The notes under the pieces were generated by a model. The model searched no databases and had not been told where the DNA came from. It worked only from the letters and a program-made list of their open reading frames with translations. Of a stretch of 54,361 bases of DNA, positions 38,820 to 39,710 are shown piece after piece; the first letter of the stretch is position 1; every line of letters begins with the position of its first letter. The stretch comes from a virus (lineage: Duplodnaviria > Heunggongvirae > Uroviricota > Caudoviricetes), in IMG/VR virus record IMGVR_UViG_2925919700_000001. One strand, written 5' to 3'. Both the position numbers and the translations under genes were made by a program.

Positions 38820-39605
38820 TTAACTTGGTAAGTGTTGCTGATTACCAACCCACTTAAACGAGTCAAGAACGCCCTGAACAATACTTTGCATTTTTGATAA
38901 CGATTCAGGTGAAATGTCCACTTCACCATAGTGACCATCAGACATAGTTGACCCGAATTTGGTGCCATTCAGATTATTTAATATCAAAGCACCTTGCGGT
39001 GCATTTATGAAGGTATTACTTATAGGCTGGAGATTCAAAGGCTTCGGTTCTCTCCCTGCGCCAAGCCCTCGAGCCCTATCTTCGAGGTGTTGAGTTGAAT
39101 TCCTAACCCCTCTGAGATCAGGAAAATCTTTACCTATCTGATCGTGTAGGGCTTTTATCGACTCAGGAGCATAAGGTTCATTCGAAATAACCTTTATAAA
39201 TTTATCAATAGTATCAAGAGAATAAAGAAAAGATTTTGCATAAATAAAAATCACACAATGTTTGTGGCTACGTGGAATTTCACCAGAACTCCACTTTTCT
39301 CGTTTAAACCTCGCGTCCACCTCAAATTGTATGTTTTCAGGATTCTCAAAAGGGGATAAACCTAACTCCTCACGAACTAGTGTTTCGATGGTTCTTCGTT
39401 CTTGCATTTCTTTTTCCCATTGCAATTGCGAAACCCCTTGTTGTTCTATTTGATTGTTTTGCTGCTGCATAAATAAATTTAATGCAACATTAGCCTCATA
39501 AAATGCAAATTCAAGATGGTCCAAAAGCCGTTCTATTTTCCAAGACCACTCTTTGTCTTCACTTTCAAGCCAGTTGCCAGGTTTGGTCAATTCAAATATA
39601 TACAT
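38820..39605 (-). CDS. Hypothetical moron protein between Q and the lysis cassette
   Basis: 261 aa in AT-rich DNA; contains RNSTQHLEDR, which fits an Rx4H (HEPN-like) pattern. Confidence 0.45.
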   Translation of the reverse strand: MYIFELTKPGNWLESEDKEWSWKIERLLDHLEFAFYEANVALNLFMQQQNNQIEQQGVSQLQWEKEMQERRTIETLVREELGLSPFENPENIQFEVDARFKREKWSSGEIPRSHKHCVIFIYAKSFLYSLDTIDKFIKVISNEPYAPESIKALHDQIGKDFPDLRGVRNSTQHLEDRARGLGAGREPKPLNLQPISNTFINAPQGALILNNLNGTKFGSTMSDGHYGEVDISPESLSKMQSIVQGVLDSFKWVGNQQHLPS

Positions 39606-39681
39606 TTGCTCAACTCACAGGATAATGGTAAAGCAATTATATTTTATTTTATAAAAAATGTTATAGGTTATGTCGCATATC

Positions 39682-39710
39682 AAAAAACCCGCTCGTCGGC
39701 GGGTTTATAA
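39682..39710 (-). terminator. tR'-like intrinsic terminator downstream of Q
   Basis: Minus-strand AAACCCGCCGACGAGCGGGTTTTTTGA: GC hairpin plus T6, in the Q-to-moron intergenic region. Confidence 0.6.

What the first reader, a model, noticed from the sequence alone, without database searches (positions are those of the whole stretch)
38820..39710. AT-rich moron between Q/tR' and the lysis cassette with an Rx4H (HEPN-like) motif
The Q-to-holin slot is the classic lambdoid moron site and here holds a 261-aa protein of no recognisable family in markedly AT-rich DNA. It contains RNSTQHLEDR, compatible with the Rx4-6H motif of HEPN RNases found in abortive-infection and toxin proteins. It could be a lysogen-expressed defence or virulence factor.
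Basis: inference. Interest (0 to 1): 0.65.

Follow-up and report, generated by a model that had tools for sequence, protein, structure and literature searches.

The report
Stand-alone HEPN-like prophage cargo gene
Between the late-gene antiterminator Q and the lysis genes of an E. coli prophage sits a self-contained, horizontally acquired gene of a widespread uncharacterised family; its conserved RNase-like motif and genomic company make it a plausible, untested single-protein anti-phage defence.

Summary
A 261-aa ORF (38820..39605, minus strand) lies between Q and the holin. Its GC is 38.7% against 50% for the window, and RNSTQHLEDR is at aa 168-177.

Comparison with related prophages defines a 909-bp cargo module (38773..39681): a promoter-like site, the ORF and its own terminator. 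The module is inserted just after a tR'-like terminator.

The protein matches no Pfam, NCBIfam, PADLOC or PDB entry, only PHROG 5322 (function unknown). It belongs to a large family of about 970 clusters at 50% identity, all about 260 aa.

An Rx4-6H match in one sequence is worthless: 26 of 43 long ORFs in this window have one. Here, though, R-[N/D]-x3-H is kept in 39 of 40 divergent relatives, together with a D-x3-K/R motif in an upstream helix.

No conserved partner gene exists. Relatives occupy the same Q-holin slot behind three Q families. They also occur as a Vibrio integron cassette, on small Acinetobacter plasmids beside AbiD, and in defence islands.

Fold and profile searches did not confirm a HEPN fold.

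Best reading: a solo, HEPN-like abortive-infection nuclease analogous to HepS (confidence about 0.4). Membership of the HEPN superfamily is unproven.

The parts
39799..40509 (-). Q antiterminator gene (upstream neighbour; RefSeq calls the ATG start that gives 229 aa, i.e. 39799..40488)
   Evidence: PF06323 E 3.6e-37 and phrog_304. RefSeq annotation in strain KSC64.
39740..39768 (-). Weak candidate late promoter PR' (TTGCAA-17-CATATT); inference only
   Evidence: Read from the sequence. It scores 8/12, below the scan threshold. Its position between the Q stop and the terminator is as expected for lambdoid phages.
39685..39706 (-). tR'-like intrinsic terminator that belongs to the phage backbone, not to the insert
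   Evidence: Hairpin AAACCCGCC-GACGAG-CGGGTTT followed by a T run. Homology to the Nissle 1917 prophage runs through it and stops at 39682. A near-identical hairpin is present in Leclercia.
38773..39681 (-). The cargo module (moron) as delimited by homology breakpoints, 909 bp
   Evidence: Phage SKA5 (same lysis cassette, 96% identity) aligns up to 38772. The Nissle prophage (same Q) aligns down to 39682. GC of the ORF is 38.7% and of the flanking spacers 33-39%.
39636..39664 (-). Promoter-like site of the module (ATAACA-17-TATAAT)
   Evidence: 10/12 consensus match. The -10 hexamer is aligned and kept as TATAAT in Leclercia and TATGAT in Klebsiella relatives. Activity was not tested.
38820..39605 (-). 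ORF of 261 aa, family of PHROG 5322 (RefSeq WP_000275196.1, 'hypothetical protein')
   Evidence: AlphaFold2 model pLDDT 89 for the full length and 94 for aa 85-261.
39087..39104 (-). Codons for R168-N-S-T-Q-H173, the conserved R-[N/D]-x3-H motif. The extended motif through R177 ends at 39075.
   Evidence: R 39/40, N/D 40/40, H 39/40, E/D175 39/40, D/E176 39/40 and R177 38/40 in relatives of 31-52% identity.
39201..39215 (-). Codons for D131-x3-K135, the second conserved motif, in predicted helix 112-141
   Evidence: D 39/40 and K/R 36/40; helix. It corresponds to the Ex3[KR] feature described for HEPN helix 2 (PMC3710099).
38777..38798 (-). Intrinsic terminator of the module
   Evidence: 9-bp stem with 6 GC pairs, followed by a T run. 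It is conserved in Klebsiella and Leclercia relatives with a compensatory G-C to A-T pair change.
38340..38726 (-). First holin gene of the lysis cassette (downstream neighbour)
   Evidence: PF16931 E 9e-35 and phrog_198.

Best explanation
A self-contained, horizontally acquired gene module (its own promoter-like site, one ORF, its own terminator) is inserted immediately after tR' in the variable Q-to-holin slot of an E. coli lambdoid prophage.

Its product belongs to a large uncharacterised family of stand-alone proteins of about 260 aa. Most likely it is a single-protein anti-phage (abortive-infection type) effector.

Proposed mechanism, inferred by analogy with solo HEPN proteins such as HepS:
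1. The protein is made in the lysogen from its own promoter.
2. It stays inactive without any antitoxin.
3. It is switched on by a component of an infecting phage, perhaps through the conserved C-terminal beta-rich part.
4. It then cleaves RNA through a metal-independent site built from R168/N169/H173, helped by D131/K135, probably across a dimer interface. This stops translation and phage growth.
5. Q-modified polymerase would also read through it late in the prophage's own lytic cycle.

Shown here: the module anatomy, its mobility, the absence of a partner gene, the conservation of the motif and the genomic company. Inferred: promoter activity, RNase chemistry, the trigger and the defence phenotype.
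For: Module anatomy:
- Breakpoints at 38772/38773 and 39681/39682.
- A promoter-like 10/12 match and two terminators.
- The terminator is kept with a compensatory change and the -10 hexamer is kept in Klebsiella and Leclercia.
- GC is 38.7% against 50%.

Slot variability:
- The Nissle prophage carries a small hypothetical protein, an SDH protease and a type II methyltransferase there.
- Phage SKA5 carries an 85-aa ORF there.

Family:
- 416 close hits, and 972 clusters at 50% identity, all about 260 aa with no fused domain among those listed.

Catalytic-looking conservation:
- R168, N/D169, H173, E175, D176, R177 and D131-x3-K135 are conserved.
- This matches the HEPN signature of Rx4-6H with a polar residue after R, plus an upstream acidic-x3-basic motif (PMC3710099).
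- The motif lies at a helix break in a confident all-alpha region.

No partner gene:
- No conserved neighbour in 55 loci.

Genomic company:
- 41 of 50 viral contigs have a Q gene directly upstream (three Pfam Q families) and holins of at least three families downstream. Klebsiella prophages show the same.
- In Vibrio it is a single-gene integron cassette flanked by attC-like repeats, near an AbiV cassette.
- On Acinetobacter Rep3 plasmids it is next to AbiD and TA pairs.
- In a Desulfuromonadales island it sits with RES-Xre, type I RM and an ABC ATPase.
- Scattered neighbours elsewhere include DRT9, CBASS, Shedu and PD-T4-6.

Precedent:
- HepS is a prophage-encoded solo HEPN with no partner. 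It is inactive until triggered and acts as a tRNA nuclease (PMC13043305).
- Tha is a comparable case in S. aureus prophages (PMC11087260).
Against: - Foldseek against the PDB finds nothing significant.
- There are no Pfam HEPN or Abi hits for 40 members, no PADLOC hit and no PDB profile hit.
- hhalign against an Abi_2 profile shows no signal. The Abi_2 versus AbiV control also failed, so that test had no power.
- Many chromosomal neighbours are ordinary metabolic genes.
- The gene is absent from 50,697 sequenced phage records.
- The extra invariant E175-D176-R177 is not part of the classical HEPN signature and could mark a different chemistry.
- There is no experimental or expression evidence.
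Confidence: 0.4

Rival explanations
1. The protein works in inter-genome conflict (defence or toxin-like effector) but is not a HEPN RNase. It would have a new fold, and the conserved patch R168/N169/H173/E175/D176/R177 plus D131/K135 would form a different active or ligand-binding site, for example a metal-dependent nuclease or phosphodiesterase, or a nucleotide-binding switch.
For: - No structural or profile link to any HEPN family.
- An invariant acidic pair (E175, D176) directly after H173 is atypical for HEPN.
- There is a conserved glycine-rich beta region at aa 214-230.
- The same mobile and defence-type contexts listed for the best explanation apply here.
Against: The R-[N/D]-x3-H motif plus the upstream acidic-x3-basic motif matches the HEPN signature point by point. 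HEPN families are known to be too divergent for profile detection, as shown by the failed Abi_2 versus AbiV control.
Confidence: 0.25
2. It is an accessory gene with a function unrelated to phage conflict, such as a stress-response, regulatory or metabolic protein. It would travel on mobile elements simply because it is small and self-contained.
For: - Several homologues sit among ordinary chromosomal genes. In Chromobacterium it lies between a PTS/amylase operon and regulators.
- The commonest neighbours are GNAT acetyltransferases, and purD-type genes also appear.
- No defence model recognises it.
Against: - A patchy distribution with 50-60% identity across distant classes points to strong horizontal mobility.
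- It recurs in phage cargo hotspots, an integron cassette array and small plasmids next to Abi and TA genes.
- It has no DNA-binding or metabolic domain signature.
Confidence: 0.15
3. It is a phage-serving late gene, for example a counter-defence factor or a host-shutoff or RNA-degrading helper. It would be expressed by Q-dependent read-through just before lysis and would benefit the prophage's own lytic growth.
For: It lies inside the late transcription unit between tR' and the holin, in the same orientation. In 41 of 50 viral contigs it is directly downstream of Q.
Against: - It has its own promoter-like site and terminator.
- It occurs outside phages: in an integron cassette, on plasmids, in defence islands and as solitary chromosomal genes.
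- It is absent from all 50,697 deposited phage genomes.
- Related phages do without it.
Confidence: 0.1
4. It is the toxin of a toxin-antitoxin or addiction module whose antitoxin has been missed (a small protein or an RNA), and it serves to stabilise prophages, plasmids and integron arrays.
For: It is found next to TA pairs on plasmids and in integron arrays, where TA cassettes are common. The HEPN-like motif is typical of toxins.
Against: - No conserved adjacent ORF in 55 loci.
- No tandem repeats or Rfam RNA next to the gene in the window.
- The 909-bp module and the Vibrio cassette have no room for a second gene.
Confidence: 0.05

Closest known systems
HepS (STM14_3211), solo HEPN abortive-infection protein of Salmonella prophage Gifsy-1 (PMC13043305)
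   Same: - A prophage-encoded single protein.
- No partner or inhibitor gene.
- A canonical R-x4-H motif.
- Encoded in an accessory-gene slot of a lambdoid prophage.
- Homologues are spread over many bacterial families and are often on prophages.
   Different: - HepS has its motif at R100-H105; here it is at R168-H173.
[quoted passage not shown]
- The trigger (tail tip protein J), the tetramer and the tRNA cleavage are demonstrated for HepS and wholly untested here.
AbiD/AbiF (Pfam Abi_2, PF07751) and AbiV (PF18728): lactococcal-type HEPN abortive-infection proteins
   Same: - Stand-alone or nearly stand-alone Abi proteins with an RN-x3-H type motif. Abi_2 has an invariant R-N-x-C-A-H.
- They are carried on plasmids, prophages and integron cassettes.
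- An AbiD gene is the immediate neighbour on Acinetobacter plasmids, and an AbiV cassette shares the Vibrio array.
   Different: - No HMM match to either family.
- hhalign against an Abi_2 profile gives probability below 1%.
- The length and architecture differ. This protein has an N-terminal helical hairpin and a C-terminal beta-rich part.
Integron-cassette HEPN family (PDB 3jrt, Vpc_cass2) as defined in PMC3710099
Tha (tail-activated HEPN system of S. aureus prophages, PMC11087260) and Esos (HEPN-like V. cholerae integron cassette, bioRxiv 10.1101/2024.07.02.601686)
   Same: Both are single HEPN-type proteins on prophages or integron cassettes that give abortive-type protection.
   Different: The pattern scan of species-representative genomes listed no V. 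cholerae record, so no close homologue was found there.
Classical lambdoid morons in the Q-to-S region (e.g. stx in Stx phages); comparison from general knowledge
   Same: The position is the same, downstream of Q/tR' and upstream of the holin. It has its own promoter and terminator, atypical base composition, and replaceable cargo.
   Different: The cargo is not a secreted toxin. No Pfam, NCBIfam or PADLOC family of any kind matches it. The family is common in non-pathogenic environmental bacteria.

Membership tests
HEPN superfamily (Anantharaman et al. 2013, PMC3710099) | A conserved Rx4-6H motif | tested here: met
   R168 is kept in 39/40 and H173 in 39/40 relatives of 31-52% identity, always with a spacing of 4. 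Both are invariant in the 30 closer relatives. A single-sequence match would be chance: 26 of 43 long ORFs in the window have one.
HEPN superfamily | The residue right after the R is polar, mostly N, D or H | tested here: met
   Position 169 is N in 29 and D in 11 of 40 sequences. The criterion is quoted.
HEPN superfamily | A second conserved acidic residue in an upstream helix, typically as Ex3[KR] | tested here: met
   D131 (39/40, with one E) and K/R135 (36/40) lie in predicted helix 112-141. The residue is D rather than E. Its spatial proximity to the motif could not be checked because no coordinates were available. Only a weak Y128-T171 coupling was seen.
HEPN superfamily | A four-helix up-down fold with the motif at the end of helix 3 or the start of the following loop | tested here: inconclusive
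   The models are all-alpha in aa 18-179. The motif sits in a short helix (164-172) that breaks at H173, and a further helix at 233-249 follows a beta insertion. The topology can be mapped onto HEPN, but only by assuming a large beta insertion between helices 3 and 4.
HEPN superfamily | Significant structural or profile similarity to an accepted HEPN domain | tested here: not met
- Foldseek against the PDB: no hit at E <= 0.001.
- Pfam scan of 40 members: no HEPN family.
- PDB profile searches: no relevant match, only three weak unrelated hits and none.
- hhalign against Abi_2: no signal, and the control between two true HEPN families also failed.
- The afdb50 library was unavailable.
HEPN superfamily | A dimeric composite active site and metal-independent RNase activity | not testable with these tools
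   This needs multimer modelling or a solved structure, plus biochemistry.
Lambdoid moron (autonomous cargo module) | A gene inserted between two backbone genes, with its own promoter and terminator and atypical composition, absent from related phages | tested here: met
   - Breakpoints at 38772 and 39682.
- A promoter-like site and a terminator that are conserved with the gene in other genera.
- GC 38.7% against 50%.
- Relatives carry other cargo.
- Promoter activity itself was not tested.
Known defence-system families (PADLOC-DB 2.0), Abi_2 / AbiV / other Pfam HEPN and Abi families | A match to the family's profile HMM | tested here: not met
   No PADLOC hit at E <= 1. No Pfam or NCBIfam hit for the query or for 40 relatives.
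HepS family | [quoted passage not shown] | tested here: not met
Type II toxin-antitoxin module | A conserved adjacent partner (antitoxin) gene | tested here: not met
   Clustering the neighbouring ORFs of 55 loci gives no conserved non-overlapping neighbour. No repeats or known RNA flank the gene.
Integron gene cassette (for the Vibrio homologue only) | A single ORF bounded by attC-type repeats within an array | tested here: met
   Locus L003 has 11 copies of the repeat, spaced 480-930 bp apart. The homologue (6001-6786) lies between the copies at 5861-5982 and 6790-6911.

The most novel reading that the evidence does not exclude
The ORF is the E. coli representative of a new, widespread single-protein immune family that no defence catalogue searched here contains. 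In this reading a HEPN-like R/H catalytic pair sits on a scaffold that is not recognisably HEPN, coupled to a novel beta-rich sensor part. The protein would guard lysogens, plasmids and integron hosts by sensing a phage product and shutting down RNA. Because it sits inside the late operon, the carrier prophage must have a way to avoid self-triggering.
Probability: 0.22. Interest if true: 0.7.

Novelty: new variant of a known kind. Interest (0 to 1): 0.5.

Why it matters
If the prediction holds, this would add a compact defence gene (about 0.9 kb, with its own promoter and terminator) to the growing class of solo HEPN sensors-plus-effectors such as HepS and Tha.

It represents a family of roughly a thousand 50%-identity clusters that is invisible to Pfam, NCBIfam and PADLOC.

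It would also document the Q-to-holin slot of enterobacterial prophages as an exchange point for defence alleles. There, alleles of 36-100% identity sit behind three Q families.

The lack of any fold match means a structure could reveal either a very divergent HEPN or an independent invention of the R/H RNase site.

If the prediction fails, the family is still a well-delimited, highly mobile protein of unknown function that deserves a DUF entry.

Tried and rejected
**Family and structure searches**
- Pfam, NCBIfam and PADLOC scans of the query and of 40 divergent relatives found nothing relevant.
- PDB sequence and profile searches, including a sub-profile of aa 86-183, found no relevant match: a few weak unrelated hits for the full-length query and profile, none for the sub-profile.
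- Foldseek against the PDB gave nothing significant. The afdb50 library was unavailable.
- hhalign of the family against an Abi_2 profile and an AbiV sequence gave no signal. The control between Abi_2 and AbiV also failed, so the test is uninformative.
- A second homologue search with the divergent alignment listed only close relatives and gave no annotated remote hits.

**Partner gene**
- ORF clustering of 55 loci, a tandem-repeat search and an Rfam scan found no partner or antitoxin. The two sub-threshold Rfam 'leader' hits are just the two terminator hairpins.

**Literature**
- Searches for the accession, the PHROG number and the motif string returned nothing.
- The DefensePredictor supplements do not contain the accession or the motif strings; some of those files were truncated when stored.
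- Brenes & Laub 2025 is not held.
- The supplement of the integron-defence preprint has no sequence match.

**Contact prediction**
- Mean-field DCA on 318 sequences was too noisy to establish contacts.

**Rejected reading**
- I rejected a virulence-factor reading. No Pfam, NCBIfam or PADLOC family of any kind matches, so nothing marks it as a known toxin or secreted effector; signal peptides and transmembrane segments were not tested. The family is mostly in environmental Proteobacteria.

Full report
**1. What is there**

The ORF at 38820..39605 (minus strand) encodes 261 aa. On the coding strand its neighbours run in this order:
- upstream: a DUF968/HNH protein and a Q antiterminator (39799..40509, PF06323, E 4e-37);
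- downstream: two holins (PF16931, PF05449), a GH19 endolysin and Rz.

RefSeq annotates the identical locus in E. coli KSC64 as 'hypothetical protein' WP_000275196.1, between 'antitermination protein Q' and 'phage holin family protein'. The exact 1.2-kb locus occurs in 25 of 5,426 complete E. coli genomes, always on the chromosome.

The ORF has GC 38.7% and GC3 32%. Flanking genes have 48-56% and the window 50.0%. RNSTQHLEDR is at aa 168-177.

**2. Anatomy of the insert**

Two terminator-like hairpins and one promoter-like site lie on the coding strand:
- a hairpin at 39706..39685, after Q;
- ATAACA-17-TATAAT at 39664..39636, a 10/12 match;
- a hairpin at 38798..38777, after the ORF.

Homology breakpoints delimit the cargo:
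- Phage SKA5 has the same lysis cassette at 96% identity and aligns only up to 38772.
- An E. coli Nissle 1917 prophage has the same Q and aligns through the first hairpin down to 39682.

So the first hairpin is the backbone tR'-like terminator. The cargo is 38773..39681 (909 bp): promoter-like site, ORF and terminator.

In SKA5 the slot holds an 85-aa ORF. In Nissle it holds a small ORF, an SDH-type protease and a type II methyltransferase.

The cargo's terminator is conserved in Klebsiella and Leclercia relatives with a compensatory pair change. The -10 hexamer is kept at the aligned position: TATAAT in Leclercia and TATGAT in Klebsiella.

This is the textbook structure of a moron. Promoter activity is inferred, not shown.

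**3. The protein family**

The query matches no Pfam, NCBIfam or PADLOC model and no PDB sequence. It matches only PHROG 5322, 'unknown function'.

Homologues are numerous:
- 416 in the word-indexed search, with more than 50% identity over full length. They come from Enterobacteriaceae, Acinetobacter, Vibrio, Limnobacter, Chromobacterium and Desulfuromonadales, and all are named 'hypothetical'.
- 972 representatives at 50% identity in the exhaustive search. All of the listed ones are about 260 aa with no extra domain.

No deposited phage genome (50,697 records) encodes it. Fifty IMG/VR viral contigs, mostly prophages, do.

**4. The motif**

A single Rx4-6H match means nothing. In this window 26 of 43 ORFs of at least 150 aa carry one.

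Conservation changes the picture. In 40 relatives of 31-52% identity:

| Position | Conserved in |
|---|---|
| R168 | 39/40 |
| N or D at 169 | 40/40 |
| H173 | 39/40 |
| E/D at 175 | 39/40 |
| D/E at 176 | 39/40 |
| R177 | 38/40 |

The single exception (P0264) has lost both R and H.

Upstream, D131 (39/40) and K/R135 (36/40) form a D-x3-K motif in a predicted long helix.

Anantharaman et al. define the HEPN signature as follows (PMC3710099):
- Rx4-6H with a polar N, D or H after the R;
- often a second acidic residue in an Ex3[KR] motif in helix 2;
- the motif at the distorted end of helix 3.

All sequence-level criteria are met.

**5. Structure**

AlphaFold2 gives confident models: pLDDT 89 and pTM 0.83 for the full length, and pLDDT 94 for aa 85-261.

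The predicted layout is:
- a short N-terminal strand;
- helices at 18-55, 60-81, 89-106, 112-141, 149-160 and 164-172, with a break at H173;
- a beta-rich stretch at about 185-232;
- a helix at 233-249.

Fold searches were not diagnostic:
- Foldseek against the PDB finds nothing.
- Profile searches against the PDB find no relevant match.
- hhalign against an Abi_2 profile is negative. The control between Abi_2 and AbiV, both accepted HEPN families, is also negative, so that test has no power.
- The afdb50 library was unavailable.

Conclusion: the protein is HEPN-like at motif level, and fold membership is unproven.

**6. Genomic company**

Clustering the neighbouring ORFs of 55 loci shows no conserved partner gene. 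No repeats or known RNAs flank the gene in the window.

In viral contigs, 41 of 50 have a Q gene directly upstream. The Q genes belong to three Pfam families: PF06323 (10), PF03589 (23) and PF06530/DUF1133 (8). Holins of at least three families lie downstream. Klebsiella prophages show the same arrangement. Leclercia has nearly the same flanks but an allele only 61% identical.

Outside phages:
- In Vibrio parahaemolyticus it is a single-gene cassette between attC-like repeats in an 11-repeat array that also holds an AbiV cassette.
- On Acinetobacter Rep3 plasmids it lies next to AbiD and TA pairs.
- In a Desulfuromonadales island it lies among RES-Xre, type I RM and an ABC-ATPase gene.
- In Limnobacter it is near a PIN/Phd pair.
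- In Chromobacterium it stands alone among metabolic genes.

Among 149 nearest-neighbour ORFs of 53 genome loci, GNAT acetyltransferases are the commonest Pfam hit. PADLOC hits are scattered: DRT9, a CBASS cyclase and effectors, Shedu, PD-T4-6 and candidate systems.

The picture is of a highly mobile, self-sufficient gene that often, but not always, keeps company with defence genes.

**7. Mechanism**

The best-supported reading is a solo, default-off abortive-infection nuclease. It would be expressed in the lysogen from its own promoter and activated by a phage product. It would cleave RNA through R168 and H173, probably across a dimer.

The closest functional precedent is HepS of Gifsy-1. HepS is a single HEPN protein with no partner. 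It is non-toxic when overexpressed, forms a tetramer, is activated by siphovirus tail-tip protein and cleaves tRNA anticodon loops (PMC13043305). Tha of S. aureus prophages is similar.

None of these steps is shown for the present protein. I put this reading at about 0.4.

The main rival, at 0.25, keeps the conflict role but drops HEPN chemistry. Its grounds are the missing fold match and the unusual invariant E-D-R after the histidine.

Other rivals are less likely:
- a non-conflict accessory function (0.15);
- a phage-serving late gene (0.10);
- a TA toxin with a hidden antitoxin (0.05).

**8. Novelty and limits**

Full-text searches for the accession, the PHROG number and the motif string found no paper. 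The DefensePredictor supplements do not list the protein. Brenes & Laub 2025 and current DefenseFinder models could not be consulted. 'Esos', a HEPN-like V. cholerae cassette, could not be compared.

On this evidence the family is uncharacterised. If it is functional as proposed, it is a new variant of the known solo-HEPN defence theme rather than a new category.

I rate interest at 0.5. It is a good, cheap-to-test candidate of unusually wide distribution and clean modular anatomy, but it is one of many predicted single-gene defence candidates and has no decisive in-silico support for its mechanism.

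Noticed in passing
window 22295..35690: The prophage's large terminase gene is split. The nuclease-domain ORF is at 22295..23407 and the ATPase-domain ORF at 34695..35690. About 11 kb separates them, carrying a tyrosine integrase (33295..34533), Bro-N, a D5-type primase/helicase (29089..30921), a ClpP-protease::capsid fusion (25593..27506), a lambda tail-I-like ORF and a second DUF1441 gene. This looks like a satellite or PICI-like element integrated inside terL. RefSeq also calls terL 'incomplete' in strain KSC64.
   Followed up: partly
L069 (E. coli Nissle 1917, NZ_CP022686.1 453357-459772): In a related prophage with 87-93% identical Q and tR', the same slot carries a 68-aa ORF, an SDH-family ClpP-fold serine protease, another small ORF and a type II DNA methyltransferase. 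The slot is therefore a cargo-exchange hotspot.
   Followed up: partly
L008 (Leclercia adecarboxylata) 7881..8940: The flanks are nearly the same as in the window (tR'-like hairpin, same holin), but the ORF allele is only 61% identical at protein level. This suggests allele replacement within a conserved slot.
   Followed up: partly
L099 / L100 (IMGVR_UViG_2541047937_000003): One viral contig carries two copies of the gene about 9 kb apart in opposite orientation, each with Q upstream and a holin downstream. This could be tandem inverted prophages or an assembly artefact.
   Followed up: no
protein P0264 (family member): This is the only one of 40 divergent relatives with both catalytic-looking residues replaced: S for R168 and R for H173, with A for E175. 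It may be an inactivated copy.
   Followed up: no
window 38771..38827 and 39679..39746, minus strand: Sub-threshold Rfam matches to Phe_leader and Trp_leader (24-25 bits against gathering scores of 55 and 41) coincide with the two intrinsic terminators. They are best read as hairpin look-alikes, not leaders.
   Followed up: yes
window 38948..39643, plus strand: Three promoter-like matches lie antisense to the ORF inside the AT-rich insert. The total of 5 sites in the region is near the shuffled expectation of 3.6, so they are probably a by-product of AT-richness.
   Followed up: no
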